64,000 bases of DNA from Patescibacteria group bacterium (GCA_048617235.1 JBMCHT010000001.1:54043-118042), one strand, 5' to 3'; positions 8,085 to 64,000 are shown, counted from the first letter of the stretch. Numbers and translations: made by a program. Notes: generated by a model not told the origin, from the sequence alone.

Positions 8085-8086
8085 AT

Positions 8087-40299: not shown

Positions 40300-41316
40300 C
40301 TACCCTCTTTTGGTTATTATACTTTTTTTATAAGTATCCAAATGTTCCAAAGCCACCCCTGTACCATTGGCAACACAAAATAAAGGTTCATCAGCTAAAT
40401 TGGCTTTAACTCCGGTTCGCCTATAAACCAAATCGGTTATATGCCTCAATTGCGAAGAACCACCGGTCATAATAATCCCTTGATCTATTATATCGGAAGC
40501 CAACTCCGGCGGAGTTTCCTGAAAGACACTTTTTATAGCTTTTATAATTTCTCTCAACTCTCCTTCTATAGCTCTAACTATTTCATTAGTTTTAATATCA
40601 GCCCCTCTAGGTAAACCAGTCATAAAATCTCGCCCTTTTATATGGTAAACTGTTTCCTCTTCTACCGGCACAGCTGAACCTATAGCCATTTTAAGATCTT
40701 CTATAGTTTTATCTCCTACCGATAAATTTAAAGTTTTTTTAATATAATCAGCAATAGCTTGATCAATTTTGTTGCCGGCGTGTTTAACTGAAGTCGAAGA
40801 AACAATACCCCCTAAAGAGATAACTGCTACATCTATCGTCCCTCCACCAATATCCACCACCATATGTCCTTTAGGTTCATAAATGGGAATTCCGGCTCCA
40901 ATGGCTGCTAAAATCGGTTCTTTAACTACATAAGCATTTCGAGCCCCGGCTTTCATAGCTGCTTCTATCACCGCTCGCCTTTCAGTTGAAGTTACTCCGG
41001 CCGGTACCGAAATTAAAACATCCGGTCTAATTAAATTAAACCGACCTAAAACTTTACTTATATAATATTTCAACATAGCTTCGGTTACCAAGTAATCGGC
41101 AATCACCCCGTCTTTCATTGGTCTAAAAGCGGTAATATTATCGGGAGTTTTACCTACCATATCTTTGGCCTCCAAACCAACAGCTACCACTTTATTATCT
41201 ATTCCGGAAACAGCTACCACTGACGGTTCATTTAAAACTATCCCCTTACCGGGTGCAAAAACCAAGGTATTAGCCGTACCTAAATCTATTCCCAATTTTT
41301 TAGTTAAAAAAGCCAT
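40300..41316 (-). CDS. mreB: Second actin-like MreB/Mbl paralog
   Basis: 'GIDLGTANTLVF', 'VDIGGGTIDVAVISLGG', 'IIMTGGSS' actin-fold motifs. Not next to mreCD. Confidence 0.85.
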   Translation of the reverse strand: MAFLTKKLGIDLGTANTLVFAPGKGIVLNEPSVVAVSGIDNKVVAVGLEAKDMVGKTPDNITAFRPMKDGVIADYLVTEAMLKYYISKVLGRFNLIRPDVLISVPAGVTSTERRAVIEAAMKAGARNAYVVKEPILAAIGAGIPIYEPKGHMVVDIGGGTIDVAVISLGGIVSSTSVKHAGNKIDQAIADYIKKTLNLSVGDKTIEDLKMAIGSAVPVEEETVYHIKGRDFMTGLPRGADIKTNEIVRAIEGELREIIKAIKSVFQETPPELASDIIDQGIIMTGGSSQLRHITDLVYRRTGVKANLADEPLFCVANGTGVALEHLDTYKKSIITKRG

Positions 41317-43739: not shown

Positions 43740-44478
43740 CTAAGGTCACGGTTAAGTTAGCTGTATAACTCCCATCCGGCAAACCGGAATCAGAAGCGGT
43801 TTCTGCTTTAAATCCTAAAACGATTTCACTACCATCAGGATGATTATCGGAATCAGCTTCCGCCACTGTTTGAACAACACCTAAGCCATCCCAACAATAA
43901 TCAAGAGAAGTAGAACCGGAAACACCACAATTATCACCATCATCTTGCCAGTTCAAAGTCGCATCATCTCCGGAAACCGTAAAGCCAAAAAGTCCGCCAC
44001 TGGTTGGAGAATCCCAAGAGTAATCAGGCACCCCTGTATTAGGAGTATAATCATCAAAACTATTACTGCCGGAACTTAAAGCCGGGTTACTATCTGCCTC
44101 AACCGTTAATTGGTAACCACTAGGGTTATTAGTAACTACTGTCCAAATTCCTTGACCGGTAGCCGAACCTCCATCAAAATCAATATTGGGAGTTAAATTT
44201 ATTTCTTCAGAACCGGATAAAGCCAAAATACTTTCATCTGTTAACATAGCCTGAAAACCACCCTCTAAATCATAAGAACCACTACTTAAATCTCCCGTCC
44301 CCATCTCGCCGACGGTATCTGTTACCTTAAAAGAACCAGATTCAGATAATTGACCGCCAACATTAACACTATCTGATTGGATTCTGTAATTACCACTTTC
44401 AGCTACAAAAGCTCCAGCTCCACCGGCTAGTAAAAAAACAATAATTACCCATTTCAATTTTAAAATTTTAATGAACAT
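43729..44478 (-). CDS. Secreted Gly/Ser/Asp-rich protein (possible WxL-like C-terminus)
   Basis: Signal peptide 'WVIIVFLLAGGAGAFVA'. Low-complexity G/S/D-rich. C-terminal 'GSYTANLTVTLVAL'. Start overlaps the upstream gene's stop. Confidence 0.4.
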   Translation of the reverse strand: MFIKILKLKWVIIVFLLAGGAGAFVAESGNYRIQSDSVNVGGQLSESGSFKVTDTVGEMGTGDLSSGSYDLEGGFQAMLTDESILALSGSEEINLTPNIDFDGGSATGQGIWTVVTNNPSGYQLTVEADSNPALSSGSNSFDDYTPNTGVPDYSWDSPTSGGLFGFTVSGDDATLNWQDDGDNCGVSGSTSLDYCWDGLGVVQTVAEADSDNHPDGSEIVLGFKAETASDSGLPDGSYTANLTVTLVAL

Positions 44479-45375
44479 TTATTTTTGTCTAATATAAAAT
44501 ACAAATTTAATAAATAAAACTAATAACAAAAATCCTGATAACCAAATCACCCAACTTGGAATAACAACAAATCTTAAAAATTTTTTATCTATTACATTAT
44601 TATAACCACGATTAAGGCTAACTCCAACTTTATACCAACCTCCAGACAAAGCCGGGATATCAAAATCTCTAAACCGAGTAGTCTCCGGTAAAACAAACCA
44701 AGGATCTATAATTTGCCGATGCACAATTTTACCTCTCAAATTTTTAATCTCAATCACTCCATAAGGATTAAGGTAAGTATCTCCTTTATTTTCAAATTCC
44801 AAACTTAGTCTCTCTGCTTGGCCACCAACAACTAAACGATTACCAGAATATCTGATCCCTTTTAACTCACCCTCGGCCTGTCCTTCAAACTCCGCCGTAG
44901 ATACAAAAACCAAAACACCTATTCTGTTTTTAATACTGGTCATAGCCGACCCTGCCTTATTTTGGAGGTTAAAATCCGCTAAAATCGCTCCATGAAAACT
45001 TTCAGTCATTAAAAATTGTTGGTGATTAAAAGTAACAGATATTGTTTTCATTTCTCCGGGCAAAATCTCAAAATTTCTTTCAGATAAAATTAACCATTCA
45101 AAATTTTCTTCATCTTTAAATATAATTCCCTTTTTCGCTTGTGCTTCTACTGTAGTCGTGTTTAAATTCACAGTCACGGGATATTTAAAACCATTAAGAA
45201 AAGTTAAGGTTTTTGTTTTGGTAATTTGTCCGGCCTCAAACCTGATTTCCATTTTTCCGGGAGTAACAGTTAAAAAAGCTTCCGTTACCAAGGGTGAGAA
45301 AAATAAAATTATCACCAGTAAACCAAAAACTGTTTTTTTCCCAATCATTAAATTTTTTATATTAATTACTGACAT
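44479..45375 (-). CDS. Membrane-anchored beta-sandwich surface protein (DUF916/DUF3324-like architecture; chaperone/anchor candidate)
   Basis: N-terminal signal, beta-rich body. C-terminal TM 'WVIWLSGFLLLVLFIKFVFY' plus basic tail. First gene of the three-gene operon. Confidence 0.4.
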   Translation of the reverse strand: MSVINIKNLMIGKKTVFGLLVIILFFSPLVTEAFLTVTPGKMEIRFEAGQITKTKTLTFLNGFKYPVTVNLNTTTVEAQAKKGIIFKDEENFEWLILSERNFEILPGEMKTISVTFNHQQFLMTESFHGAILADFNLQNKAGSAMTSIKNRIGVLVFVSTAEFEGQAEGELKGIRYSGNRLVVGGQAERLSLEFENKGDTYLNPYGVIEIKNLRGKIVHRQIIDPWFVLPETTRFRDFDIPALSGGWYKVGVSLNRGYNNVIDKKFLRFVVIPSWVIWLSGFLLLVLFIKFVFYIRQK

Positions 45376-49411: not shown

Positions 49412-50392
49412 ATGACAGACAATTTTTATAATAATTTTATAGCTGAATTAAAAAGTTGGTCTCAACAATTAAAATGGCAACCAGACATTGAATTACCTAC
49501 CCTAGCCGAAAATCTTCCTATTGTTGTTGCCGGTATGGGCGGTTCCGGTTTACCCGGTCGCATCCTTAAAACTTATAGCCAAAAACAAATAATTAATCAT
49601 CATAATTATGGTTTACCTCAAAATATAACCAAGGCTACTTTAGTCGCTATTTCCTATTCCGGCAATACCACAGAAACTATAGATGCTCTAAAAACCGCTC
49701 TCAAAGCCAATTGGCCGGTTGTAGTTATAACCGGTGGTGGCCAATTAAAACAATTAGCTATCGATTATAATCTTCCACTGATAGAAATTCCCCCGATAGT
49801 TTCTCAACCTCGACTGGCTTTACCAATAGTAACCAAAATCTTGGCTCATATCTTATTAGAAACAAATATTATTCAAGAAATAGAAAAGACCGCTAATCAG
49901 TTAGCTTTTGATTCTTTAACAAGCATTGCTCAAGCTATGGCTCAAAATACCCAAAATAATTGGCCGGTTATTTTAACCACCGCTGAATACGCTACCTTAG
50001 CCTATATTTGGAAAATTTCCATTAATGAAAATGCCAAAAGACCGGCTTTAATTTCCATTATTCCGGAAATGAATCACAATGAAATTGAAGGTCTCTTAAA
50101 TAACAAGCAAGAGATTTCTCTAATCGCCCTCACCGCTTCCCAGAAAAACAATCATCCAAATCAAAAAAGATTAAATTTAACTTTAGAAATAGCCAAAGAT
50201 TTAAATCAAGTAACTTTTGTTTATGATTTACTTAACGAACAAATTAATAATTTTTGGAATGGAACACTTTTAGGTAATCTTTATTCTCTGGAATTAGCTA
50301 AAATCAATGGAACTGATCCCTTAACTGTTCCCGTAATAGAAAAGTTCAAACAAAAGTTATCCTCTACAGATGACTTTACAAAAAAGATTTAA
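49412..50392 (+). CDS. SIS-domain bifunctional phosphoglucose/phosphomannose isomerase (archaeal-type)
   Basis: 'VVAGMGGSGLPGRIL' and 'AISYSGNTTET' SIS motifs. Two-SIS architecture, ~326 aa. Confidence 0.65.
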   Translation: MTDNFYNNFIAELKSWSQQLKWQPDIELPTLAENLPIVVAGMGGSGLPGRILKTYSQKQIINHHNYGLPQNITKATLVAISYSGNTTETIDALKTALKANWPVVVITGGGQLKQLAIDYNLPLIEIPPIVSQPRLALPIVTKILAHILLETNIIQEIEKTANQLAFDSLTSIAQAMAQNTQNNWPVILTTAEYATLAYIWKISINENAKRPALISIIPEMNHNEIEGLLNNKQEISLIALTASQKNNHPNQKRLNLTLEIAKDLNQVTFVYDLLNEQINNFWNGTLLGNLYSLELAKINGTDPLTVPVIEKFKQKLSSTDDFTKKI

Positions 50393-54322: not shown

Positions 54323-55035
54323 AAAAATTTATTAGAAATAACAGTTCCTTTAAATTCCAAATTATTTAAATAATTATCTAATCGTTCTAAATGTTGACCA
54401 TTAATAATAATCACTTCCATATTTTCAGCTTGAGCCAATCTGGAAGCTTCCGGATCAAAAGGAGTAGATAATCCCGGATTCCAATCTTTGGGTATTAATT
54501 GTAAAAAATTAACCCAAGATATTTTGTCGTAAAATTCAGCTTCAATATTTTTTTGAGGATCTTCCTCATAAACATAATCTATATTAGATAAATTGATTAT
54601 TCTATCTGACCCTAAAGTTTTAGCTAAAGACACAGCACAATAATCAGTACTACGACCCGGTCGCCAACCGGCAGCCACCAATAAAGATTCCTCAAAAACA
54701 GGAAGAGCGGTTGGATTTTTAACCATCACCGGATGAGCTTCTTGATAAAAAATAGAGCGTAAAAGATGTCCATTCAAACGAGTCCCATGAATACCCAACC
54801 AATCCAAATCCTCAACCGATAAATCGGTTACCGCTTGACCGGCTTTTTGGTAACGCCTGGCAGTTTGACCACCACCGGTTATAAGCACAAATCGTCGACC
54901 TTTACTTATTTGTTCCAATAAAATATTTTTAAAAATTTTAAGAAAAGAAATATCAATATTATCAGGTACTATCAAAGACCCTCCGACTGATATAATAATT
55001 GGTTTTTCTTTTTTCATCATTAAAGAGTTTAGCAA
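54319..55035 (-). CDS. pyrH: Archaeal-type UMP kinase (amino-acid-kinase fold)
   Basis: 'IISVGGSL', 'ITGGGQTARRY', 'LGIHGTRLNGHLL', 'AGWRPGRSTDYCAVSLA...IDYVYEEDP' collinear with archaeal PyrH. Confidence 0.7.
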   Translation of the reverse strand: MLNSLMMKKEKPIIISVGGSLIVPDNIDISFLKIFKNILLEQISKGRRFVLITGGGQTARRYQKAGQAVTDLSVEDLDWLGIHGTRLNGHLLRSIFYQEAHPVMVKNPTALPVFEESLLVAAGWRPGRSTDYCAVSLAKTLGSDRIINLSNIDYVYEEDPQKNIEAEFYDKISWVNFLQLIPKDWNPGLSTPFDPEASRLAQAENMEVIIINGQHLERLDNYLNNLEFKGTVISNKFL

Positions 55036-55069
55036 TAAAACTAAGATTAGCCAACATAAATTAAATATC

Positions 55070-55097
55070 TTGACTTTAACAATATTATATTTATACT
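55070..55097 (+). promoter_or_regulatory. Sigma70-like promoter TTGACT-N16-TATACT
   Basis: Hexamers at 55070-55075 and 55092-55097, immediately upstream of the structured RNA. Confidence 0.4.
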
Positions 55098-55103
55098 ACA
55101 TTA

Positions 55104-55322
55104 TAGATGGGAGAAGGTGGCCGATCTAAGGCAAAAACCAACACACAATTCAGTAAAAAAACGCCTTGGTATTAACCACCTTCTCCCCTTCCTTCTGCCT
55201 TTTAAAGATAAAGCGGGGTCGAGACGACCCAAATCCCACAAACAGCTGTGAGGCCTGTTTGATGAAAGATTAGCCGTTCTCGGCTCCGCCCCCAACCCCC
55301 GAATAACTCGGGGGTTTATTTA
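55104..55322 (+). ncRNA. Candidate ~215-nt structured RNA (unclassified), promoter-to-terminator unit with no downstream same-strand gene
   Basis: 12-bp perfect closing helix GGGAGAAGGTGG(55109-55120)/CCACCTTCTCCC(55176-55187). Hairpins GGGTCG-aga-CGACCC and CAAACAG-N9-CTGTTTG. Terminator CCCCCGA-ataac-TCGGGGG plus TTTATTT. Confidence 0.45.
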
Positions 55323-55326
55323 TAAA

Positions 55327-55752
55327 TTATTCTTCAGTTAGTTGAGTTACCGTTCCCACCTGATCAGCCGGAGTTAGACCTAATTCAAATACCACCCACT
55401 GCCAGGCTGAAAGATTATTTAATAAATTTTCCCGAAAATTATTAAAATTTATATTTTGACTTTCTCCTTCCACTAAAATAGTTATTTGAGGATCTTTAAC
55501 TAAAATTAAATCTTTAATACCTGCAAGATCTTCATTATTACCAACCCCTCCTTCTAAATAATCCACCGGATCAACCACTAAATGCCATTCACTTTCAGAT
55601 TCATAAATATCTCGAATAAAAACAGTCTCGTAATCAACAATAGCTTGATTAACTTGATTACCATTCTGCCACCACAGCCAACCAGTTACAGCTAAAATTA
55701 ACAATAAACCACCAACTATATATTTTATTTTAAAATTTTCTCTTTGTCTCAT
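55327..55752 (-). CDS. Hypothetical membrane-anchored protein
   Basis: N-terminal TM 'YIVGGLLLILAVTGWLWW'. No known domain. Confidence 0.4.
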   Translation of the reverse strand: MRQRENFKIKYIVGGLLLILAVTGWLWWQNGNQVNQAIVDYETVFIRDIYESESEWHLVVDPVDYLEGGVGNNEDLAGIKDLILVKDPQITILVEGESQNINFNNFRENLLNNLSAWQWVVFELGLTPADQVGTVTQLTEE

Positions 55753-55836
55753 AATCTTTATTTTAACATTTTATATTTTTTTAACCAATTAAAAAACCCG
55801 GGGCTATCTCTTTTGCGAAATTACCCCGGGTGTGTT

Positions 55837-56265
55837 TTAGCGAGTCAAAATTTTGTCCACGCAGGGAACAAGGTGAGGCAATTGAAGACAGATTGTATTC
55901 CGCAACTCAAATACCTCACCGGGGGTAGAAGTGTGTTTAAAAGCGCCTTGCAAGCAAAGCTTAATCATCACCTCGGCCAATCCCTGTAGTGACTGACTCT
56001 CAAAAATAAGACTATCAATCAGCTTAATAATCTTTATCAAGTCAGCCGGTTCTTTGGCCTGAAGTCGAGCTTGGCACAAGGCCCTTAAAGCCAAGAGGCC
56101 GTCAATCCGACTGAAGGCCCGGCCAACCTCCAACCACTGCCAACACGCCAGATCCTCAATCAAAAGACCTTGAAAAAAGCGCTGGGCTTTCTCCCTAGTT
56201 TTCGATTGAGAATTTTGATTGACATACTGATTAAAAAGCTTCAGCATCTGATTCAAATCAGCCAT
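55837..56265 (-). CDS. Hypothetical alpha-helical protein (142 aa), second gene of a GC-richer two-gene operon. Start at ATG 56265, not the longer ORF-track call.
   Basis: Strong RBS 'AGAGGAGGA' 6 nt upstream. Start 1 nt after the zinc-ribbon gene's stop. Downstream hairpin plus T6 terminator (~55795-55830). Confidence 0.5.
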   Translation of the reverse strand: MADLNQMLKLFNQYVNQNSQSKTREKAQRFFQGLLIEDLACWQWLEVGRAFSRIDGLLALRALCQARLQAKEPADLIKIIKLIDSLIFESQSLQGLAEVMIKLCLQGAFKHTSTPGEVFELRNTICLQLPHLVPCVDKILTR

Positions 56266-56266
56266 C

Positions 56267-56443
56267 TTAAGTCCTCCTCTTTTTGCCCTCCAAACATTTC
56301 GGACACAAGTACCGACGCTGTCCCCGCTTATCCTTTTTGACAACCAAAGCAAAGGCCTGAACCCTGTTCGACCAGCGACCGGATTGGCCACAAATATCAC
56401 AAACCTGATTGTCCGGCAAAGAATAATAGACAGATACCTTCAT
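56267..56443 (-). CDS. Small zinc-ribbon protein (58 aa, CxxC-N27-CxxC)
   Basis: 'MKVSVYYSLPDNQVCDICGQSGRW...RYLCPKCLEG'. RBS 'AGGAAGAAG' 7 nt before ATG 56443. The ORF-track TTG extension is unlikely. Confidence 0.5.
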   Translation of the reverse strand: MKVSVYYSLPDNQVCDICGQSGRWSNRVQAFALVVKKDKRGQRRYLCPKCLEGKKRRT

Positions 56444-56552
56444 TTTCTTCTTCCTTCTGTTAAAGACCCGAGTTTCTATTACAGCAAACAAGAAAAGTTA
56501 TTAAAAAGCAAGCCCTTGCCTCTTTGGGTAATATCGGGCAAAATATTAAGAT

Positions 56553-57806
56553 ATGAAACAAAACTGGTTTGAAAAATTTTATCAGCGTCATTTTGAAGAT
56601 TGGAGTAATATATCCGGATCCGAATTATTGAATTTTATTTTACCTAAAGCCGAAACTATCATTACTGAAAAAGAATTAACAGAAAAATTAAACTCCGGCA
56701 AAAAATTAAAAATTAAATTCGGCATTGATCCCACTGGAGCTCAAATACATTTAGGTCATGTAGTACCCATTATGCTTTTGCGCCAATTTTTAAGAGCCGG
56801 ACATGATATAGATTTTATTATAGGAGATTTTACCGCTCGTATCGGAGATCCGGCCGGTCGTACTACTGAAAGAGTACCTTTAACCTCAAATCAAATAGAT
56901 GACAATCAAAAAAATTACGAACAACAAATAGCTCGTTTTATAGATTTGGATAAAATCAGAGTCCATCGTAATTCTTCTTGGCTAACGCAAGTTTCTTTGG
57001 AAGATTTAATCAGTATTTTACAAACTGTTAGTGCTAAAGAGGCTCTCCAAAGAGATGACTTTCGTCAACGCCTGAAAAAAAATGAAGGTTTATCTTTAGC
57101 TGAGATAATTTATGGTGTTTTAATGGGTTTAGACTCTCTGGAGCTTAAAAACGATATCGAGGTCGGTGGAATTGATCAATTACTTAATTTTCAACAATGT
57201 CGAGAAGTAATGGCCGCTACCGGCCTAGAAAAAGAAACAGTCATTACCACTCCTTTAATAGAAGGTTTAGCCGGGGATGGTCAAAAAATGAGTAAAAGTT
57301 TAGATAATCATATCCCCTTAGAAGCCCCGGCAGATGAAAAATTCGGCTTAATTATGTCTGCCCCCGATAATTTAATTACTCAATATACTCGAAGCTGGGC
57401 AGATATTAATCAAGAAGAATTAACGGATTGGAATAATTTCATTTTAAGTGATCCCCTGGAAGCCAAAAAGCAATTAGCTAGTTATTTAGTAGCCATAGAA
57501 GCTAAAAATCCTGAGGCCGGCGTAACCGCTAGAGAAAATTTTGAAAGAAAATTCAGTCAAAAAGTTTTAAAAGAAGAAGATTACATTACCATTAAAACCG
57601 GAGACGGTACGACTATCTTCTCAGCTTTAGCCAATAGTGATCAATTTTCCAGCAACAACCAACTTCGACGACTTTTCCAAGAAACTGCTATTCGTCTTAT
57701 AACCGAAAATAATGAAGAAGAAATTTTAGAACCGGATTTTGTTATAACTAAAAATATTAATCTGCGAGCCGGTAAAACTCTTTTCTTGAAAATAAAAATT
57801 GATTAA
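56553..57806 (+). CDS. tyrS: Tyrosyl-tRNA synthetase
   Basis: 'GIDPTGAQIHLGHVVPI' HIGH region, 'IGDFTARIGDPAGRTTER', 'KMSKSLDN'. ~417 aa. Confidence 0.85.
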   Translation: MKQNWFEKFYQRHFEDWSNISGSELLNFILPKAETIITEKELTEKLNSGKKLKIKFGIDPTGAQIHLGHVVPIMLLRQFLRAGHDIDFIIGDFTARIGDPAGRTTERVPLTSNQIDDNQKNYEQQIARFIDLDKIRVHRNSSWLTQVSLEDLISILQTVSAKEALQRDDFRQRLKKNEGLSLAEIIYGVLMGLDSLELKNDIEVGGIDQLLNFQQCREVMAATGLEKETVITTPLIEGLAGDGQKMSKSLDNHIPLEAPADEKFGLIMSAPDNLITQYTRSWADINQEELTDWNNFILSDPLEAKKQLASYLVAIEAKNPEAGVTARENFERKFSQKVLKEEDYITIKTGDGTTIFSALANSDQFSSNNQLRRLFQETAIRLITENNEEEILEPDFVITKNINLRAGKTLFLKIKID

Positions 57807-58696
57807 CTAAAATCTTGGTTAAATTCTTGATACCACCGATGGATTTTATCACCATAACGTTCATCTTTTAGAGATAAATACAATAAAGATTTAAGCCAAT
57901 CTTCTTTAGTGCCACACTCCAACCACCGCCCTTCAAATTCCAAACCATAAATCGGTAAATTATTAGTCACCGCCCGACTTAAACCATCAGCTAAATTTAA
58001 TTCACCATTTACCCCTTTATCTATATTGCTTAAAATGGAAATTACATCAGGCATTAAAATATATTTTCCTACTACCGCTAAATCTGAGGGCTCCGTACCA
58101 ATTTTTGGTTTTTCAACAAATGATTTTATTTTATGAATCTTAGATTCAACCACCTCAGTAGCCACTACTCCGTAGGCAGAAAGTTTTGATCGAGGCACTC
58201 GCGACAAAGCTAAAATTGTCTCTTGGTATTTATCAAAAGATTCTAAAAGTTGAGCCAAGCAAGGTTTATCAGCCTCTACCACATCATCGGCAAATAAACA
58301 GGCTATTGGTTCTTTATTGGATAATAATTTTTCGTCAAAGACTCTCAATAAAGCATCGCCATTACCGACCGGCTTATCTTGAACAAGCCAATCAATTTTA
58401 AAAAACTTATACAAATCATCTATTTTATCCAGCTCGGATAAAAGATCTTTTTTTCCTCTTTCAGTTAAAACATTAACCAAAGAAGATCGAGGAGACAAAT
58501 AATCTAAAACTAGTTGATTATCTGATCCCCCCACAAAAACTATATGTTTGATACCGGCCAATTTAATCTCTTCTAAAATATAATGAATAATGGGCAAATC
58601 CCCCAAAGGCCACATCTCTTTCGGTATAGTTTTAGATAAAGGTAAAAACCGGCTACCTAATCCCCCTAATAAAACTACCGCGGTTTCTATTTTCAT
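57803..58696 (-). CDS. galU: UTP--glucose-1-phosphate uridylyltransferase (sugar nucleotidyltransferase)
   Basis: 'VVLLGGLGSRFLPLSKTIPKEMWPL' nucleotidyltransferase G-rich loop. ~297 aa. Confidence 0.75.
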   Translation of the reverse strand: MKIETAVVLLGGLGSRFLPLSKTIPKEMWPLGDLPIIHYILEEIKLAGIKHIVFVGGSDNQLVLDYLSPRSSLVNVLTERGKKDLLSELDKIDDLYKFFKIDWLVQDKPVGNGDALLRVFDEKLLSNKEPIACLFADDVVEADKPCLAQLLESFDKYQETILALSRVPRSKLSAYGVVATEVVESKIHKIKSFVEKPKIGTEPSDLAVVGKYILMPDVISILSNIDKGVNGELNLADGLSRAVTNNLPIYGLEFEGRWLECGTKEDWLKSLLYLSLKDERYGDKIHRWYQEFNQDFS

Positions 58697-58768
58697 TAAT
58701 TATAATATTAGCATATTTAAAATTAAAAGACTTTTTCAAAAATAATTAATCTGCTATAGTAATTAGAT

Positions 58769-60508
58769 ATGGAATCCCAAAACAATGATTTAGAAACCAA
58801 ACGCCATTCTCTGGCTCATTTGTTGGCAGCAGCGGTAATTAAATTATACCCGGAAGCCAAGCCCACTTTAGGCCCGGCTATAGAATACGGTTTTTATTAT
58901 GATTTCGACATTCCTCAAACCATTACCGAAAAAGATTTACAAATTATAGAAACGGAAATGAAAAAGATATTAAAAACTTGGTCCGGTTTTACTAAAAAAA
59001 CCGTTTCTGCCGAAGAAGCTAAATCTTTATATCAAGATAATCCTTATAAACTGGAATTAATTCAAGAAATAATTAATAAACAAGAACCGATTACGCTTTA
59101 TATTTCCGGAGAGGGAGATAATCAATTTACTGATTTATGTCAAGGTGGTCATACAAACAATATAAAGGAAATTCCCTTAAATAGTTTTAAATTGGACAGA
59201 ATAGCCGGTGCTTATTGGCGTGGGAATGAAAAAAACAAAATGCTTACCAGGATTTATGGATTAGCTTTTAATGACAAAAAAGAATTAGAAGAATTTTTAA
59301 AACAAAAAGAAGAAGCCAAAAAAAGAGATCACCGTAAATTAGGTCAGGAATTGGATTTATTTACTTTTTCAGATTTAGTCGGAGCCGGCTTACCTTTATT
59401 CACTCCCAAAGGTACAGCCATTCGCCAAGCTCTCCAAGATAAATTGTTATTAATTAGCAAGCGCTATGGTATGCAACCGGTTACCATTCCCCATATTGCC
59501 AAAAAAGCTCTTTATGAAACTTCCGGGCATGCCGATAAATTCAGTGATGAATTAATAAAAGTAGTCAGTCATTATGATGAATTTGTAATGAAACCGGTTA
59601 ATTGTCCTCATCACACTCAAATTTACACTTCTCGTCCTCGTAGTTATCGTGATTTGCCTTTGCGTTATATGGAATCCACTATGCAATACCGAGATGAAAA
59701 ACCGGGAGAAATCGGTGGTTTAACTCGTGTTCGTTCTATTACTTGTGACGACGGTCATATTTTTTGCATGGTTAATCAAATCCAAAACGAAGTTAAACAA
59801 ATAGCTCAAATTATTAAAGAATTTTATACTGAATTAGGTATGTATGGTAATCACTGGGTTTCTTTATCTGTTCGTGATCCCCGCAAACCGGAAGATTATA
59901 TAGGTGAAGAACCGGACTGGATTCAAGCCGAACAAATGCTCCAAAATGTTTCCGATGAACTTAAACTGGATGCTAAAATTATGGAAGGCGAAGCCGCTAT
60001 CTATGGCCCTAAATTAGATTACATGTTTAAAGATTCACTAGGTAGAGAAAGACAATTGGCTACTATTCAAGTGGATTTTGCTATGCCTAAACGTTTTAAA
60101 CTTGAATATGTAGCCGAGGACGGCTCTTTGCAAACTCCGGTTATGATCCATCGGGCTATTCTTGGTTCTTATGAAAGATTTTTAGCCATTTTAATAGAAC
60201 ATTTTGCCGGCGCTTTTCCTGTCTGGCTATCTCCGGTGCAAACCAAAATTATTCCCATTAGTCAAGATCAAGAAAAATTTGCCACTGAAATTTACAATCA
60301 ATTAAAAAACAAAGATATTCGAGTGGAAATAGATTTAAGTAAAGATACTTTAGGCAAAAAAATAAGACGAGCTAAACAAGAAAAAATTCCCTATTTAGCA
60401 GTTATTGGAGACAAAGAAGTCTCTAGCAATAAGATAAATATAGATAGCCGTGATCAGGGTCAGTTGGGAACAATCACTTTAGATGAATTTTTAAAATTAC
60501 TCGTATAG
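58769..60508 (+). CDS. thrS: Threonyl-tRNA synthetase lacking the N-terminal TGS domain
   Basis: Starts at the editing-domain 'RHSLAHLLAAAV' motif. 'RDHRKLGQELDLF' and class II catalytic core. C-terminal anticodon-binding domain. Confidence 0.9.
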   Translation: MESQNNDLETKRHSLAHLLAAAVIKLYPEAKPTLGPAIEYGFYYDFDIPQTITEKDLQIIETEMKKILKTWSGFTKKTVSAEEAKSLYQDNPYKLELIQEIINKQEPITLYISGEGDNQFTDLCQGGHTNNIKEIPLNSFKLDRIAGAYWRGNEKNKMLTRIYGLAFNDKKELEEFLKQKEEAKKRDHRKLGQELDLFTFSDLVGAGLPLFTPKGTAIRQALQDKLLLISKRYGMQPVTIPHIAKKALYETSGHADKFSDELIKVVSHYDEFVMKPVNCPHHTQIYTSRPRSYRDLPLRYMESTMQYRDEKPGEIGGLTRVRSITCDDGHIFCMVNQIQNEVKQIAQIIKEFYTELGMYGNHWVSLSVRDPRKPEDYIGEEPDWIQAEQMLQNVSDELKLDAKIMEGEAAIYGPKLDYMFKDSLGRERQLATIQVDFAMPKRFKLEYVAEDGSLQTPVMIHRAILGSYERFLAILIEHFAGAFPVWLSPVQTKIIPISQDQEKFATEIYNQLKNKDIRVEIDLSKDTLGKKIRRAKQEKIPYLAVIGDKEVSSNKINIDSRDQGQLGTITLDEFLKLLV

Positions 60509-61396
60509 ATGAATTAAATACTCATCTATATCCCTTTGATTCCAATCATAAAAATTATCTCCCTCCCGGTGTAAATCTTTAGCCAAACGTACCCCCACAA
60601 AACGCCAATGCCAAGGTTCAAAAAGATAATAATCATTATCTTCCGAATAAGATAAAACAAAACCAAAACGATGAGCATTATCCAAAAGCCAGTCATAGGC
60701 TTCGGTTTTAGCAAAATCTGTAAAATTTAAACCTAATTCTTCTGTAGTTAAATCAACTGCCGTCCCTAATTGATGTTCAGAATAACCCTGATCAGCCGAA
60801 AACTCATTGGCGGTACCCACCCCATATCTTATTTTATAATTTTCCTTTAATTTAAATTGTTCTTGGAAAGAACGATAACCGGAAATAAGGCGTAAATCTA
60901 TATCATCTCTAGCGGCCGCTCGAATCATATCTGACAAATAAGGCCAAACTTTTTCTTGAATCAATACATTTTTATTTTCAACCGCAACATATCTATCATC
61001 TATTTCTATTAAATCAGCCGGAGCATAATGTTCATTCAAAAAATAAACTCGGGAATATTTTTTTAATAATTCCGGATCAGTTTGACTTAATTTTTCCAAA
61101 TCTCCCACTGAACCGGTTACTCCTTCCACTTGATCGGACAACATATCCAAACGACTACTTTCTTGATTTAGAGAATTTCTAAGATTACTTATATCTTGAG
61201 TTAACATTTCTATCTCATTTTCTGCTTCATTTAAACTCTTTGAAGTTTTGGTTTGCTCTTCGTTTAAATTATCAAATTGGGTTTTTAAAATATCCAATGA
61301 ATACCAATTATAACCACCAATTCCAATTTGTAACAAAAATAAACCAATTAAACCAATTAGAATTAAATTTATTTTACTAAAATCTATTTTATACAT
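60497..61396 (-). CDS. Membrane-anchored D-Ala-D-Ala carboxypeptidase-like zinc peptidase (M15B/VanY family)
   Basis: N-terminal TM plus coiled coil. 'SGYRSFQEQ', 'SEHQLGTAVDL', 'EPWHWR' M15 motifs. Confidence 0.75.
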   Translation of the reverse strand: MYKIDFSKINLILIGLIGLFLLQIGIGGYNWYSLDILKTQFDNLNEEQTKTSKSLNEAENEIEMLTQDISNLRNSLNQESSRLDMLSDQVEGVTGSVGDLEKLSQTDPELLKKYSRVYFLNEHYAPADLIEIDDRYVAVENKNVLIQEKVWPYLSDMIRAAARDDIDLRLISGYRSFQEQFKLKENYKIRYGVGTANEFSADQGYSEHQLGTAVDLTTEELGLNFTDFAKTEAYDWLLDNAHRFGFVLSYSEDNDYYLFEPWHWRFVGVRLAKDLHREGDNFYDWNQRDIDEYLIHLYE

Positions 61397-61513
61397 AACT
61401 CGATTATTCTAACACAAATTACTCTATTTTAAAATCAAATCGTCAAATTTGGCAAAAAAACTACAAATAGGTTACAATAATTAACATTAAATCTTGATTA
61501 TTAAAACCATTTT

Positions 61514-62719
61514 ATGTCTATTGATTCTATTGACCTAGCTTATGAAAAAAGTTTAGATTTGTTACACAATTTGAGTTCTGAAAAAGGATTTTTGGCCTCT
61601 ACTGAAGATGTTTCTAATTATAAACGCTTATGGGCTCGGGATAGTGCGGTAGCTATTTTGGCTTCTTTGGTAGCCGGAGATAAAGATCTTGTGTTTACTT
61701 CTCTTCATTCTTTGGAATCTCTCAGACGCCAACAAGACACTACCGGTCGTCTACCCAGTAATATTGCTTTTGATGAAAAAAATCAAGTTAAAAAAGTTAG
61801 TTATGGTCAAACCGTTGGCCGTATAGATGCCACTATTTGGTATATTATTGCCGTTTGCCAATTTGCTATCTATACCGAAGATAAAAAATTTTTTAATCTT
61901 TTTCAAGAATCTCTCAAAAAAGCACTTTTTTATTTAGAATGTTTGGAATTAAACAATAAAGGTTTAATTTACTTTCCTCAAGGAGCCGATTGGGCGGATG
62001 AATATATAGATCATGGTTATATTTTACTTAATCAACTTTTAAGGTTAATAGCTCTAAAAAGTTACTACCATTTAACCCAAAATGAAAAAATAGCCAAAGA
62101 TATAGAAGAATTAACCAATCTGATTTTAATCAATTATTTTCCTGACGAAGAAAACTTGGATAATCCTTATGTTTATAATAAAGTCTTGTTTACCGAAAGC
62201 ATTAAAGAATACGAACCGCCTTTGCCTATCTCCTATTTTACTACCCATAGTGTTCATTATCATGATAGTAATTTTGCCAATGCTTTAGTTCTTCTAACCC
62301 AAATTTGCGAACCGGCAGACACAGCCGCCATCATGGATTGTGTTTTAGAGAAATATCTCAATCAAGGTCAAAAGATAATTCCAGCCTTTGCCCCGGTAAT
62401 AACCGAAGACGATCCTTTATGGCAAAAACTGGTTTTCCATTATCGTTATGAATTTAAAAACAAACCTTACCAATTTCACAATGGTGGTTTATGGCCTTTA
62501 GTTCATGGCTTTTTCTTAGCCGGTACCACCAAAGAAAAAGGCAAGCCTCACCTACAAACTTTTGCCGAAAAACTAGCTAAGGATAATTTTATTTTTCCGG
62601 AATATTATGATGGTCAAACTGAAGAAGCTCAAGGTACTAAATATTTAGGGTTTTCCGCCAGTGCTTATATAATAGCTTACAATTCTCTTATTAAAGATAG
62701 ACGCCCCTTTATTTTATGA
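61514..62719 (+). CDS. Alkaline/neutral invertase-like glycoside hydrolase (GH100, (alpha/alpha)6 barrel)
   Basis: 'LWARDSAVA', 'YQFHNGGLWPLV', 'FPEYYDGQ' collinear with plant/cyanobacterial neutral invertase ('YHNGGSWP', 'WPEYYDG'). Confidence 0.65.
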   Translation: MSIDSIDLAYEKSLDLLHNLSSEKGFLASTEDVSNYKRLWARDSAVAILASLVAGDKDLVFTSLHSLESLRRQQDTTGRLPSNIAFDEKNQVKKVSYGQTVGRIDATIWYIIAVCQFAIYTEDKKFFNLFQESLKKALFYLECLELNNKGLIYFPQGADWADEYIDHGYILLNQLLRLIALKSYYHLTQNEKIAKDIEELTNLILINYFPDEENLDNPYVYNKVLFTESIKEYEPPLPISYFTTHSVHYHDSNFANALVLLTQICEPADTAAIMDCVLEKYLNQGQKIIPAFAPVITEDDPLWQKLVFHYRYEFKNKPYQFHNGGLWPLVHGFFLAGTTKEKGKPHLQTFAEKLAKDNFIFPEYYDGQTEEAQGTKYLGFSASAYIIAYNSLIKDRRPFIL

Positions 62720-63543
62720 TTCTTCTGGCTACAGATCTAGACAGAACCCTATTGCCCAATGGATCAGAACCTGATTCCGGTCACTTACATATTTTATTTA
62801 ATAGCTTAAAATCCAAAAATATTAAATTAGCTTATGTCAGTGGCCGTAATCTTCCTCTATTACAAACAGCTCTAAAAAAATATTCCTTACCTTTGCCGGA
62901 TATTTTTATTGGGGCCGTCGGTACTGAAATTTATCAAAAAAATAAAGACCAACTTATCCCCGATCCTCTATGGCCGGAATATGTTATTAATAATTCACCT
63001 AATTGGGATGATGCTTGGATCAGACAAAATATCAAAGAACCGGAAATAAATCTACAAGAACCGGAAGTTCAAAATCCTTTTAAGGTCAGTTTTTATTGTT
63101 CAACTAATGAACAAATAGATAATTTAATAAAAAAAATAAAATCTAAATTAGAAACTAAACATATTTCCGCCAAAACTGTTTATAGTTTTGACCCTCTGAA
63201 AAAAATCGGTCTCTTGGATATCTTGCCGGCAATTACCAGTAAAGTCGGGGCAATTGAATATATTAGACAACAGTTGCAATTAACCAAAGATCAAGTAATT
63301 TATTGTGGCGACAGTGGTAACGATATCCACCCCCTAACCGCCGGTTATAAATCAATTATGGTTAAAAATGTTGATCAGCAGACCCGACAAGCGGTAACCA
63401 CTCATCATCAAAATAATAAAACCGAGCATCTGTTATACCAATCCCAAGGAGGCGTAGTCGGCAACGGCCACTACGCCTCCGGAATCTTGGAAGGATTAAT
63501 TCATTTCCAAATTATTTCTTCACAAGATATTTTCGAACAATAA
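62716..63543 (+). CDS. HAD-IIB phosphatase (sucrose-phosphate phosphatase-like)
   Basis: 'LLATDLDRTLL' motif I. 'YVSGRNL' and 'GDSGNDI' HAD-IIB motifs. ATGA overlap with the invertase-like gene. Confidence 0.7.
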   Translation: MILLATDLDRTLLPNGSEPDSGHLHILFNSLKSKNIKLAYVSGRNLPLLQTALKKYSLPLPDIFIGAVGTEIYQKNKDQLIPDPLWPEYVINNSPNWDDAWIRQNIKEPEINLQEPEVQNPFKVSFYCSTNEQIDNLIKKIKSKLETKHISAKTVYSFDPLKKIGLLDILPAITSKVGAIEYIRQQLQLTKDQVIYCGDSGNDIHPLTAGYKSIMVKNVDQQTRQAVTTHHQNNKTEHLLYQSQGGVVGNGHYASGILEGLIHFQIISSQDIFEQ

Positions 63544-63545
63544 AT

Positions 63546-63932
63546 TTATTCTGTGGTTTGACCGTCAAAATGTTCCTCGATCTCATCAGCTTTGGTTTTA
63601 TGAACCGTGCCTTCTTTATGCTCCGGCGGAGAATAAACGGAATACAATTTCAAAGGAACCGAGCCGATATTAATCACATTATGGCTCATTCCTTGGGGGA
63701 TGACAATGGCGTCATCATCACTCAATTCATGTTCGACTCCATCTAAAACAGCTTTAGCCTGACCGGCTTCTATTCTAATAAACTGATCTAAGTCATGAAC
63801 CTCCTCCCCTATTTCATCCCCCGGTTCAATAGACATTAAGACCAACTGGCTATTTTTAGCCGTATAAACCACCCGCCGATAATCCGTATTATCTTTGGTA
63901 GCTTTTTCAATGTTATCTATATATCCTTTCAT
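63546..63932 (-). CDS. Cupin-domain protein
   Basis: 'EPGDEIGEEVH...DQFIRIEAGQAKAVLDG' two-His cupin motifs, 128 aa. Confidence 0.65.
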   Translation of the reverse strand: MKGYIDNIEKATKDNTDYRRVVYTAKNSQLVLMSIEPGDEIGEEVHDLDQFIRIEAGQAKAVLDGVEHELSDDDAIVIPQGMSHNVINIGSVPLKLYSVYSPPEHKEGTVHKTKADEIEEHFDGQTTE

Positions 63933-64000
63933 AATTTTTATATAAATTAATTATAATATTCTTCATTTTAAAACCATTCAAATAATTTGGCAATGAATAA

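What the first reader, a model, noticed from the sequence alone, without database searches (positions are those of the whole stretch)
57803..63543. GH100 neutral-invertase-like hydrolase coupled to a sucrose-phosphatase-like HAD-IIB enzyme, next to GalU
The 401-aa protein aligns motif-for-motif with alkaline/neutral invertases ('LWARDS', 'YQFHNGGLWP', 'FPEYYDGQ'), a family essentially restricted to cyanobacteria, plants and a few proteobacteria. It is translationally coupled (ATGA overlap) to an SPP-like HAD-IIB phosphatase. A UDP-glucose pyrophosphorylase lies one gene upstream. This looks like a sucrose or related compatible-solute (glucosylglycerate/mannosylglycerate-type) synthesis/turnover module. 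That is unexpected in a reduced CPR-like genome and possibly horizontally acquired.
Basis: partly seen in the sequence, partly recalled or inferred. Interest (0 to 1): 0.6.

Follow-up and report, generated by a model that had tools for sequence, protein, structure and literature searches.

The report
Coupled invertase-like hydrolase and sucrose-phosphatase cassette
Two overlapping genes for a distant relative of neutral invertase and a sucrose-phosphate-phosphatase-like enzyme form a two-gene unit conserved across ultra-small bacteria (CPR) and archaea (DPANN), most likely handling sucrose-6-phosphate and sucrose, while the nearby GalU gene is not part of it.

Summary
The two genes are real. 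The hydrolase gene is at 61514-62719 (+, 401 aa) and the phosphatase gene at 62716-63543 (+, 275 aa), joined by an ATGA overlap. All quoted motifs are present.

The hydrolase is a distant GH100 relative. Pfam GH100 scores 61 bits. Its 28 best solved-structure matches are all GH100 invertases, at 18-20% identity. The catalytic Asp and Glu and the "fixer" Asp are invariant. GH63 and GH15 fit far worse.

The phosphatase is an intact S6PP-family HAD-IIB enzyme. Its closest solved structure is Synechocystis sucrose-phosphatase.

The pair recurs, adjacent and on the same strand, in 26 of 26 CPR and DPANN loci examined. Seventeen of these have the same ATGA overlap. No third gene is conserved with it. 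The two gene trees agree, and a fused phosphatase-hydrolase protein exists.

Independent context points to sucrose:
- Bacteroidota orthologues sit between a sucrose-symporter-like transporter and a fructokinase-like PfkB kinase.
- The same phosphatase orthogroup in DPANN follows sucrose-phosphate-synthase-like glycosyltransferases.

GalU is two genes away on the opposite strand and is not conserved there. No synthase gene was found within about 10 kb past the window end.

Best reading: a sucrose-6-phosphate to sucrose to hexoses module. It is a new variant of known enzyme kinds, of moderate interest. The substrate is inferred, not shown.

The parts
61449..61478 (+). Sigma-70-like promoter candidate (TTGGCA-18-TACAAT) in the 117-nt divergent intergenic region, about 36 nt upstream of the hydrolase start codon
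   Evidence: consensus scan, 10 of 12 matches. This is weak evidence because the region is AT-rich: 25 sites were found against 13 expected. No Rfam RNA element was found in 55000-64000.
61514..62719 (+). Divergent GH100-like (alpha/alpha)6-barrel alpha-glucosidase, 401 aa, with no signal peptide visible by eye. Predicted fixer D43, general acid D162, general base E363.
   Evidence: Pfam GH100 scores 61 bits. The AF2 model has pLDDT 91 and pTM 0.93. The top 28 Foldseek PDB hits are InvA, InvB and AtNIN2 (E 1.6e-15 to 1.3e-12, TM 0.71-0.78). D43, D162, E363 and W327 are invariant in alignment A1.
62716..62719 (+). ATGA overlap of the hydrolase stop codon and the phosphatase start codon (translational coupling)
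   Evidence: One search shows it in the window. The same ATGA overlap occurs in 17 of 26 CPR/DPANN loci. One locus has an 8-nt overlap, seven have gaps of 1-5 nt and one has a 37-nt gap.
62716..63543 (+). S6PP-family HAD-IIB phosphatase, 275 aa, with intact catalytic motifs (D7, D9, S42-G43-R44, K176, D199, D203)
   Evidence: Pfam S6PP scores 174.9 bits. The family profile matches Synechocystis SPP 1s2o at E 5.8e-30; the next match is NtdB at 4.5e-18. NCBIfam HAD-SF-IIB passes its cutoff, but the SPP_plant-cyano equivalog does not (125.6 against 183.65).

Best explanation
The locus is a self-contained two-gene operon. It is bounded by a divergent VanY gene upstream and a convergent cupin gene downstream.

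It encodes (1) a cytoplasmic, inverting alpha-glucosidase from a short (~400 aa), deeply divergent branch of the GH100 neutral/alkaline-invertase lineage, and (2) a catalytically intact sucrose-phosphate-phosphatase-type HAD-IIB enzyme.

The two act on successive steps of one pathway. The phosphatase removes the phosphate from sucrose-6F-phosphate, or a very similar phosphorylated alpha-glucosyl disaccharide. The hydrolase then splits the free disaccharide into glucose and fructose.

Physiologically this is most likely the terminal part of a small sucrose (compatible-solute) cycle. Its synthase, if the organism has one, is encoded elsewhere. In DPANN relatives the same phosphatase is instead coupled to a sucrose-phosphate-synthase-like glycosyltransferase.

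Shown here: gene structure, conserved coupling, fold, conserved catalytic residues, and the gene contexts.

Inferred: substrate identity, reaction order and physiological role.
For: Conserved coupling:
- The phosphatase gene immediately follows the hydrolase gene on the same strand in 26 of 26 CPR/DPANN loci. Seventeen have the ATGA overlap.
- No other gene family is shared by more than 4 of the 26 loci within +-8 kb.
- Neighbour-joining trees of the two genes recover the same clades.
- Comparing the longest-contig lengths listed by eye, about 40 of the top 120 phosphatase homologues appear to share a contig with a hydrolase homologue.
- A natural fusion protein exists: P0261, 667 aa, S6PP domain followed by the GH100-like domain.

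Hydrolase identity:
- Pfam GH100 passes its gathering threshold.
- Sequence and profile searches of the PDB find essentially only GH100 invertases.
- For the AF2 model (pLDDT 91), GH100 structures are the top 28 Foldseek hits, about 7 orders of magnitude ahead of GH78 and GH63.
- D162 aligns with InvB D189 (InvA D188) and E363 with InvB E415 (InvA E414). D43 aligns with the clan GH-G fixer Asp and W327 with InvA W376. All four are invariant (residue roles from PMC6995568 and bioRxiv 10.64898/2026.07.01.735942).

Link to sucrose:
- In 53 of the 55 remaining loci (Bacteroidota, plus one Anaerolineales) the orthologue lies between two genes. One is an MFS transporter whose only NCBIfam hit is the sucrose/H+ symporter family. 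The other is a PfkB kinase with a fructokinase hit. LacI and TonB-receptor genes lie upstream.
- A GH100-like-PfkB fusion exists (P0278).
- In Anaerolineales, a sucrose-synthase/SPS-like glycosyltransferase directly precedes the hydrolase gene.
- Members of the same phosphatase orthogroup directly follow SPS-like glycosyltransferases in DPANN contigs L086, L090 and L091. The glycosyltransferase of L086, the one scanned, scores 446 bits on TIGR02472. These phosphatases nest inside the hydrolase-paired clade.

Precedent: operons that mix sucrose synthesis and breakdown genes are known, for example sps-spp-amylosucrase-fructokinase in Synechococcus PCC 7002. Ionic inhibition of invertase limits futile cycling (PMC9971976).
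Against: - No biochemical data exist for any member of this ~400-aa subfamily.
- Identity to characterised GH100 enzymes is only 18-20%. The Pfam match is strong only over the C-terminal third. InvB Arg430 is not conserved (Thr375 here), and InvA W434 is Phe in the CPR sequences. Specificity at the +1 subsite is therefore open.
- The phosphatase scores below the NCBIfam SPP equivalog cutoff.
- No SPS-like gene was found in the 64-kb window, in the ~10 kb beyond it, or within +-8 kb of any CPR cassette. No Patescibacteria name appeared among the top 120 SPS-like hits.
- The source of sucrose-6-phosphate in CPR cells is therefore unexplained.
- Co-expressing a phosphatase and a hydrolase for its product looks wasteful without further regulation.
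Confidence: 0.6

Rival explanations
1. Same two-step logic, different substrate. The phosphatase dephosphorylates, and the hydrolase then cleaves, another phosphorylated glycoside. Candidates are mannosylfructose-6-phosphate/mannosylfructose, glucosyl- or mannosyl-3-phosphoglycerate, or an uncharacterised alpha-glucoside.
For: - +1-subsite residues known from InvA/InvB are not conserved (R430 to T, W434 to F).
- Both enzymes fall below equivalog-level thresholds.
- The DPANN glycosyltransferase is also below the SPS equivalog cutoff (446 against 576 bits).
- Other clades of the hydrolase family are fused to udk/PRK-type P-loop kinases of unknown specificity, which shows functional diversity in the family.
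- From general knowledge: the mannosylfructose-phosphate synthase and phosphatase of Agrobacterium belong to the SPS and S6PP families.
Against: - All independent context signals are the sucrose type: a sucrose-symporter-like MFS, a fructokinase-like PfkB, and GT-B_Sucrose_synth glycosyltransferases.
- MPGP-type phosphatase models score only 17-23 bits.
- GH63 mannosylglycerate and glucosylglycerate hydrolases are much poorer structural matches (E about 1e-6 against 1e-15).
Confidence: 0.22
2. Scavenging rather than osmolyte turnover. CPR cells that carry the cassette have no synthase. They use the pair to convert an imported or host-derived phosphorylated disaccharide, or sucrose taken up as such, into free hexoses for their truncated central metabolism.
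For: - No SPS-like gene lies in cis in any CPR locus.
- No Patescibacteria-named protein is among the top SPS-like hits.
- The window is otherwise housekeeping, with a phosphoglucose isomerase at 49412-50392.
- Both enzymes appear cytoplasmic.
Against: - No transporter or hexose kinase is conserved next to the cassette.
- Sucrose-6F-phosphate is not a known exchanged metabolite.
- Absence of SPS was tested only near the locus, not genome-wide.
- Ion transporters sit next to the cassette in two genomes (Na/Ca exchanger in L001; Na/Ca exchanger, Na/H exchanger and a P-type ATPase in L084). That hints at osmotic rather than nutritional function.
Confidence: 0.2
3. One reading: a sucrose or compatible-solute synthesis/turnover module that includes GalU (UDP-glucose supply), with a synthase just beyond the window, recently acquired by horizontal transfer.
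For: A GalU-like gene lies about 2.8 kb upstream. UDP-glucose is the SPS donor (established pathway knowledge).
Against: - GalU is on the opposite strand with ThrRS and VanY in between.
- No GalU-like gene lies near the pair in the 25 other CPR/DPANN loci.
- No glycosyltransferase lies in the next ~10 kb.
- There is no compositional anomaly.
- The window protein groups with other CPR sequences in the gene trees.
Confidence: 0.07
4. The hydrolase belongs to another (alpha/alpha)6 family (GH63 mannosylglycerate/glucosylglycerate hydrolase, GH15 glucoamylase, or a glycogen-debranching GDE_C/GH176 type), and the adjacency with the phosphatase is incidental.
For: Weak secondary hits only: GDE_C 16.5 bits (below cutoff), TIGR01535 glucoamylase 23.9 bits over 68 residues (cutoff 741.9), and 7vma at E 0.016.
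Against: - GH100 is the only family that passes a curated cutoff.
- GH100 structures take the top 28 structural hits.
- The adjacency holds in 26 of 26 loci, and a fusion protein exists.
Confidence: 0.03

Closest known systems
GH100 alkaline/neutral invertases (Anabaena InvA/InvB, Arabidopsis CINV1/NIN2; PDB 5GOO-5GOR, 5Z73/74, 6TTJ)
   Same: - Single-domain (alpha/alpha)6 barrel.
- The same catalytic Asp (acid), Glu (base) and fixer Asp, and the HNGGxWP tryptophan.
- Shared motifs RD, GRxDAxxW, NxPxxxHNGGxWP and PEYY.
- Cytoplasmic location.
- Orthologues sit in sucrose-utilisation-like loci.
   Different: - Only 18-20% identity.
- About 60 residues shorter.
- InvB Arg430 and InvA Trp434 are replaced in the CPR sequences.
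- The Pfam match is partial.
- Paired or fused with an SPP-like phosphatase, PfkB kinases or udk/PRK-like kinases.
- No member has been characterised.
Sucrose-6F-phosphate phosphatase (SPP; Synechocystis slr0953, PDB 1S2O; Pfam S6PP)
   Same: - HAD-IIB architecture with all four catalytic motifs.
- Best PDB match (profile E 5.8e-30).
- Shared cap-region motif Q..QNxxKxSY.
- Members of the same orthogroup follow SPS-like glycosyltransferases in DPANN.
   Different: - Below the NCBIfam SPP equivalog cutoff.
- Ser44 of SPP is Asn here.
- Translationally coupled to a hydrolase rather than to a synthase.
- No SPS was found nearby.
Sucrose gene clusters that mix synthesis and breakdown (sps-spp-amylosucrase-fructokinase operon of Synechococcus PCC 7002; spsA-susA-sppA cluster of Microcystis PCC 7806; PMC9971976)
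   Same: A sucrose-forming phosphatase is co-transcribed with a sucrose-cleaving enzyme.
   Different: - Here the cluster is reduced to two genes.
- The cleaving enzyme is GH100-like rather than GH13 amylosucrase or sucrose synthase.
- There is no synthase or kinase in cis.
- The hosts are non-photosynthetic CPR and DPANN.
GH63 mannosylglycerate/glucosylglycerate hydrolases (clan GH-G)
   Same: The same clan-level fold and catalytic arrangement.
   Different: - Much weaker structural match (E about 1e-6, TM 0.55-0.64).
- No Pfam or NCBIfam GH63 hit.
- The partner phosphatase is S6PP-type, not MPGP-type.

Membership tests
GH100 (alkaline/neutral invertase) | Match to the family model above its curated threshold | tested here: met
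   PF12899 scores 61 bits against a cutoff of 23.6, E 1.1e-16. The strong stretch covers only residues 256-388.
GH100 (alkaline/neutral invertase) | Single-domain (alpha/alpha)6 barrel closest to solved GH100 structures | tested here: met
   AF2 model with pLDDT 91. Foldseek ranks 1-28 are all InvA, InvB or AtNIN2, with E 1.6e-15 to 1.3e-12 and TM 0.71-0.78.
GH100 (alkaline/neutral invertase) | Catalytic acid Asp188, base Glu414 (InvA numbering) and the clan GH-G fixer Asp | tested here: met
   D162 aligns with InvB D189, E363 with InvB E415, and D43 with the RD motif. All are invariant in 18 diverse family members.
GH100 (alkaline/neutral invertase) | Arg430 (InvB) next to the catalytic Glu, and Trp434 of the hydrophobic platform | tested here: not met
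   The aligned residues are T375 and F380 in the window protein. Trp is retained only in the Flavobacterium clade.
GH100 (alkaline/neutral invertase) | Specific hydrolysis of the alpha-1,2 bond of sucrose with inversion | not testable with these tools
   Only contextual support: a sucrose-symporter-like MFS and PfkB in Bacteroidota, and SPS/SuS-like glycosyltransferase neighbours.
Sucrose-phosphate phosphatase (SPP, EC 3.1.3.24) | HAD-IIB phosphatase with intact motifs I-IV and an S6PP-type cap | tested here: met
   D7, D9, S42-G43-R44, K176, D199 and D203 are conserved. PF05116 scores 174.9 bits, and TIGR01484 scores 67 against a cutoff of 41.8.
Sucrose-phosphate phosphatase (SPP, EC 3.1.3.24) | Score above the NCBIfam equivalog model SPP_plant-cyano | tested here: not met
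   125.6 bits against a cutoff of 183.65. TIGR01482 SPP-subfamily scores 67.7 against 107.15.
Sucrose-phosphate phosphatase (SPP, EC 3.1.3.24) | Genomic or functional partnership with sucrose-phosphate synthase | tested here: inconclusive
   None was found in the window, in the ~10 kb beyond it, or in the CPR loci. Members of the same orthogroup in DPANN directly follow SPS-like glycosyltransferases. The whole genome was not searchable.
GH63 (mannosylglycerate/glucosylglycerate hydrolase) | Better sequence or structural fit than to GH100 | tested here: not met
   No GH63 model hit. Foldseek gives 4wva at E 1.0e-6 and 5oi1 at 1.3e-6, against 1e-15 for GH100.
GH15 (glucoamylase) | Match to the glucoamylase model | tested here: not met
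   TIGR01535 scores 23.9 bits over residues 28-95 against a cutoff of 741.9.
GalU-linked sucrose synthesis operon | GalU adjacent, co-oriented and conserved with the pair | tested here: not met
   GalU is on the opposite strand, two genes away. It is absent from the other 25 cassette loci.

The most novel reading that the evidence does not exclude
The ~400-aa proteins are a separate, uncharacterised glycoside-hydrolase subfamily (308 clusters at 50% identity). Its CPR/DPANN branch has been exchanged between the two domains together with its phosphatase. In cells that lack any sucrose-phosphate synthase, the pair forms a dedicated salvage route that lets ultra-small symbionts harvest a phosphorylated alpha-glucoside obtained from their hosts. 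The substrate need not be sucrose. The kinase-fused clades would mark further new specificities.
Probability: 0.15. Interest if true: 0.7.

Novelty: new variant of a known kind. Interest (0 to 1): 0.42.

Why it matters
CPR bacteria and DPANN archaea have very few carbohydrate-active enzymes, and how they obtain or buffer sugars is poorly understood. A two-gene unit kept intact, often with the same 4-nt overlap, across both radiations marks a function under steady selection. It gives a concrete, cheaply testable hypothesis: sucrose-6-phosphate and sucrose turnover, possibly osmoprotection.

The finding also flags a large uncharacterised branch of the GH100 lineage whose partners differ by clade: phosphatase, PfkB kinase, or udk-like kinase. 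Current annotations ("GH100 family protein", "glycogen debranching protein", "invertase") are untested guesses. None of the eight literature searches run here found a paper describing this cassette (for example).

Tried and rejected
- GH63, GH15 and GDE_C assignment: rejected on HMM and fold scores.
- GalU as a module member: rejected on position and lack of conservation.
- Synthase just past the window: the identical contig was fetched and ~10 kb downstream carries cupin, Na/Ca exchanger, DAPDH_C, Pyr_excise, RibD_C, NYN, TruB and M3 peptidase genes, plus several ORFs with no Pfam hit, but no glycosyltransferase. tblastn with five SPS-like proteins against the window and all 91 loci hit only L086, L090, L091 and L066.
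- Recent horizontal transfer: no GC anomaly.
- Phage carriage: no relatives in the viral contigs.
- RNA element upstream: none found by Rfam.
- Subsite-level residue comparison: the InvA (PMC5207263) and SPP (PMC1167551) structure papers are not held. Only catalytic residues quoted in secondary sources could be mapped.
- Downstream ORF of the kinase-hydrolase fusion locus L089, tested as a possible phosphatase: no match.
- Identity of the udk/PRK-like kinase domain fused to other clades: unresolved. The best hits are uridine kinase models far below cutoff and PDB 1rz3.
- Phosphorylase idea (loss of the catalytic base, as in GH65): rejected because both the acid and the base are invariant.

Full report
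**What is in the sequence.**
- The last 8 kb of the window carries, in order:
  - TyrRS (56553-57806, +)
  - a GalU-like nucleotidyltransferase (57803-58696, -)
  - ThrRS (58769-60508, +)
  - a VanY-type carboxypeptidase (60497-61396, -)
  - a 401-aa ORF (61514-62719, +)
  - a 275-aa ORF (62716-63543, +)
  - a small cupin gene (63546-63932, -).
- The 401-aa protein contains the quoted motifs LWARDS, YQFHNGGLWP and FPEYYDGQ.
- The junction reads ...ttttATGAttc..., so the second ORF starts 4 nt before the first one ends.
- The pair is flanked by a divergent gene upstream and a convergent gene downstream, so it is a stand-alone two-gene operon.
- A sigma-70-like site lies at 61449-61478, which is weak evidence in AT-rich DNA. 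No Rfam element is present.
- GalU is not "one gene upstream". It lies two genes away on the other strand.

**The hydrolase.**
- Pfam assigns Glyco_hydro_100 at 61 bits (cutoff 23.6). The good alignment covers only the C-terminal third.
- NCBIfam offers only a 24-bit fragment match to glucoamylase.
- Against PDB sequences, only GH100 invertases score, plus marginal hits: E 2e-9 with the single sequence and 2.5e-12 with a family profile.
- An AlphaFold model built from an 18-sequence alignment is confident (pLDDT 91, pTM 0.93).
- Its 28 best Foldseek PDB matches are all Anabaena InvA/InvB or Arabidopsis NIN2 (E 1.6e-15 to 1.3e-12, TM 0.71-0.78, 18-20% identity).
- GH78 rhamnosidases follow at 3e-8 and GH63 mannosylglycerate/glucosylglycerate hydrolases at about 1e-6.
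- From the HMMER alignment to InvB:
  - D162 corresponds to InvB D189 (InvA D188, general acid).
  - E363 corresponds to InvB E415 (InvA E414, general base).
  - D43 lies in the RD motif of the clan GH-G "fixer" aspartate.
  - W327 corresponds to InvA W376.
  - All four are invariant across 18 diverse homologues. Residue roles come from PMC6995568 and bioRxiv 10.64898/2026.07.01.735942.
- In contrast, InvB Arg430 and InvA Trp434 are replaced by T375 and F380.
- The protein is thus a catalytically competent, inverting alpha-glucosidase-type enzyme of the GH100 lineage. It is a remote branch, and its aglycone (+1) subsite cannot be assumed identical to that of invertase.

**The phosphatase.**
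- Pfam S6PP scores 174.9 bits.
- The best NCBIfam hits are SPP_plant-cyano (125.6 bits) and the SPP-like domain of bacterial SPS. Both are below their equivalog cutoffs. The generic HAD-IIB model passes.
- All HAD catalytic motifs are intact and invariant in 15 homologues: D7, D9, S/T42-G43-R44, K176, D199 and D203.
- A family profile matches Synechocystis SPP (1S2O) at 5.8e-30, well ahead of kanosamine-6-phosphate phosphatase NtdB at 4.5e-18.
- The alignment shares a cap-region motif, Q..QNxxKxSY, with SPP.

**The coupling is conserved.**
- A scan of one genome per GTDB species found at least 576 genomes encoding relatives of the hydrolase. The best 80 loci were kept.
- All 25 kept loci from Patescibacteria or DPANN archaea, plus the window's own contig, have the S6PP-type gene immediately downstream on the same strand.
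- Spacing between the two genes:
  - ATGA overlap in 17 of 26 loci
  - 8-nt overlap in one
  - gap of 1-5 nt in seven
  - gap of 37 nt in one.
- Clustering all neighbouring ORFs showed no further family shared by more than 4 of the 26 loci. GalU, VanY, ThrRS and cupin homologues occur only in the window's own genome.
- Neighbour-joining trees of the two proteins recover the same clades, including two separate archaeal groups, so the genes evolve as a unit. These are distance trees without support values and should be read as indicative.
- Comparing the longest-contig lengths listed by eye, about 40 of the top 120 phosphatase homologues appear to lie on the same contig as a hydrolase homologue.
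- An exhaustive profile search found the family in 308 clusters at 50% identity with E<=1e-30. It also revealed a natural fusion, P0261 (667 aa), with an N-terminal S6PP domain and a C-terminal GH100-like domain.

**What the substrate probably is.** Three independent contexts point to sucrose.
- *Bacteroidota.*
  - In 53 of the 55 remaining loci the orthologue (36-39% identity) is flanked upstream by an MFS transporter and downstream by a PfkB kinase.
  - The transporter's only NCBIfam hit is the sucrose/H+ symporter family.
  - The kinase has a fructokinase hit.
  - LacI and TonB-dependent receptor genes lie further upstream.
  - That is the layout of a sucrose-utilisation locus. A GH100-like-PfkB fusion also exists (P0278).
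- *Anaerolineales (L066).* An ABC sugar transporter and a sucrose-synthase/SPS-like glycosyltransferase directly precede the hydrolase gene.
- *DPANN archaea.*
  - Members of the same phosphatase orthogroup (38-41% identical to the window protein) directly follow a 453-463-aa glycosyltransferase with the GT-B_Sucrose_synth domain in L086, L090 and L091.
  - The L086 copy, the one scanned against NCBIfam, has the SPS glycosyltransferase domain TIGR02472 as its best model (446 bits, below the 576 cutoff).
  - L086 also carries phosphoglucomutase and a sugar-1-phosphate nucleotidyltransferase.
  - L091 also carries a mechanosensitive channel, a GH15 enzyme and PfkB.
  - In a tree of the phosphatases, these synthase-paired proteins nest inside the hydrolase-paired CPR/DPANN clade.
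- The phosphatase thus links a sucrose-phosphate-synthase-like enzyme on one side to the invertase-like enzyme on the other. The simplest chemistry is sucrose-6F-phosphate to sucrose to glucose plus fructose.

**What remains unexplained.**
- No SPS-like gene occurs in the 64-kb window, which is otherwise housekeeping: tRNA synthetases, murein synthesis, MreB and a phosphoglucose isomerase.
- None occurs in the ~10 kb beyond the window end or within +-8 kb of any CPR cassette.
- None of the named top SPS-like hits is from Patescibacteria.
It therefore stays open whether CPR cells make sucrose-6-phosphate themselves or obtain a substrate from outside.
- Operons that combine sucrose synthesis and breakdown genes are known in cyanobacteria, and invertase there is inhibited by ions (PMC9971976). 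Co-expression of a phosphatase and the hydrolase of its product is therefore not without precedent.
- Ion transporters sit beside the cassette in the window's genome and in a Campbellbacteria genome. This fits an osmotic role but is only anecdotal.

**Horizontal transfer.**
- Local GC (0.32-0.35) does not differ from the rest of the window.
- The best hits to the window protein are unnamed metagenome proteins at 59-62% identity. The relatives that carry a name or were placed in the trees are CPR proteins at about 50%. Recent acquisition is therefore not indicated.
- The cassette's presence in both CPR bacteria and DPANN archaea, with two archaeal clades, implies older inter-domain transfer of the pair.
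- No viral copies were found.

**Comparison with what is known, and verdict.**
- The hydrolase works like a GH100 invertase in fold and catalytic machinery, and it passes the Pfam threshold. It fails on two secondary active-site residues and is only 18-20% identical to characterised members. It is best described as a divergent subfamily of GH100.
- The phosphatase works like SPP but does not reach equivalog scores.
- The two-gene architecture, hydrolase first and phosphatase translationally coupled, was not found described in the searchable literature.
- NCBI already labels the very same proteins "glycoside hydrolase 100 family protein" and "HAD-IIB family hydrolase".
- The finding is therefore a new variant of known kinds. 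The GalU and synthase elements of the original interpretation are wrong. Interest is moderate.

Noticed in passing
P0258, P0287, P0290 (kinase N-terminal); P0301, P0317, P0321, P0355 (kinase C-terminal); P0323 has the same length class but its domains were not scanned; locus L089 8001-10283: Other clades of the ~400-aa GH100-like family are fused to a udk/phosphoribulokinase-family P-loop kinase of unknown specificity. The best hits are uridine kinase models far below cutoff and PDB 1rz3. A glycosidase-kinase fusion of this type appears undescribed.
   Followed up: partly
P0383 (6485 aa, GH100-like domain at 666-1074) and P0387 (1850 aa, domain at 1009-1398): Giant proteins with an embedded GH100-like domain turned up in the exhaustive profile search. 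Their other domains and source organisms were not examined.
   Followed up: no
L086 2296-8834; L090 8650-10810; L091 578-9274: DPANN archaea (Woesearchaeota and relatives) carry SPS-like glycosyltransferase plus SPP-like phosphatase operons. One has phosphoglucomutase and a sugar-1-P nucleotidyltransferase nearby. Another has a mechanosensitive channel, GH15 and PfkB. This suggests sucrose synthesis as an osmolyte in these archaea.
   Followed up: partly
L066 6-6043 and 9049-10302: An Anaerolineales contig has an ABC sugar transporter, then a sucrose-synthase/SPS-like glycosyltransferase, then the GH100-like hydrolase in one direction. A TreT-type trehalose synthase lies nearby.
   Followed up: partly
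window 63546-63932 (-): A 128-aa cupin with weak similarity to the cupin domain of type II mannose-6-phosphate isomerases lies convergent to the phosphatase gene, with only 2 nt between the stop codons. It is not conserved next to the cassette elsewhere.
   Followed up: partly
window 57803-57806 and 60497-60508: Convergent gene pairs overlap at their 3' ends: TyrRS/GalU by 4 nt and ThrRS/VanY by 12 nt. This reflects very tight gene packing.
   Followed up: no
window 41484-45375 (-): Three consecutive ORFs (751, 249 and 298 aa) have no Pfam match at E<=1e-6. They lie between an MreB paralogue and a PriA-like gene.
   Followed up: no
window 36724-37809 (-) and 40300-41316 (-): Two MreB/Mbl paralogues lie within 5 kb of each other in a small CPR-type genome.
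   Followed up: no
L001 12455-13459; L084 5028-6023, 10026-11243 and 14047-15999: Ion transporters (Na/Ca exchanger, Na/H exchanger, P-type ATPase) lie beside the cassette in the window's own genome and in a Campbellbacteria genome. This is a possible hint of an osmotic-stress context, seen in too few loci to count as conserved.
   Followed up: partly
L082 (272-kb contig) 8001-10018: The cassette also occurs on a contig rich in two-component sensors, a PHA-granule regulator and LiaF-like genes. That gene content does not look like a typical reduced CPR genome, so the pair may extend beyond CPR and DPANN.
   Followed up: no
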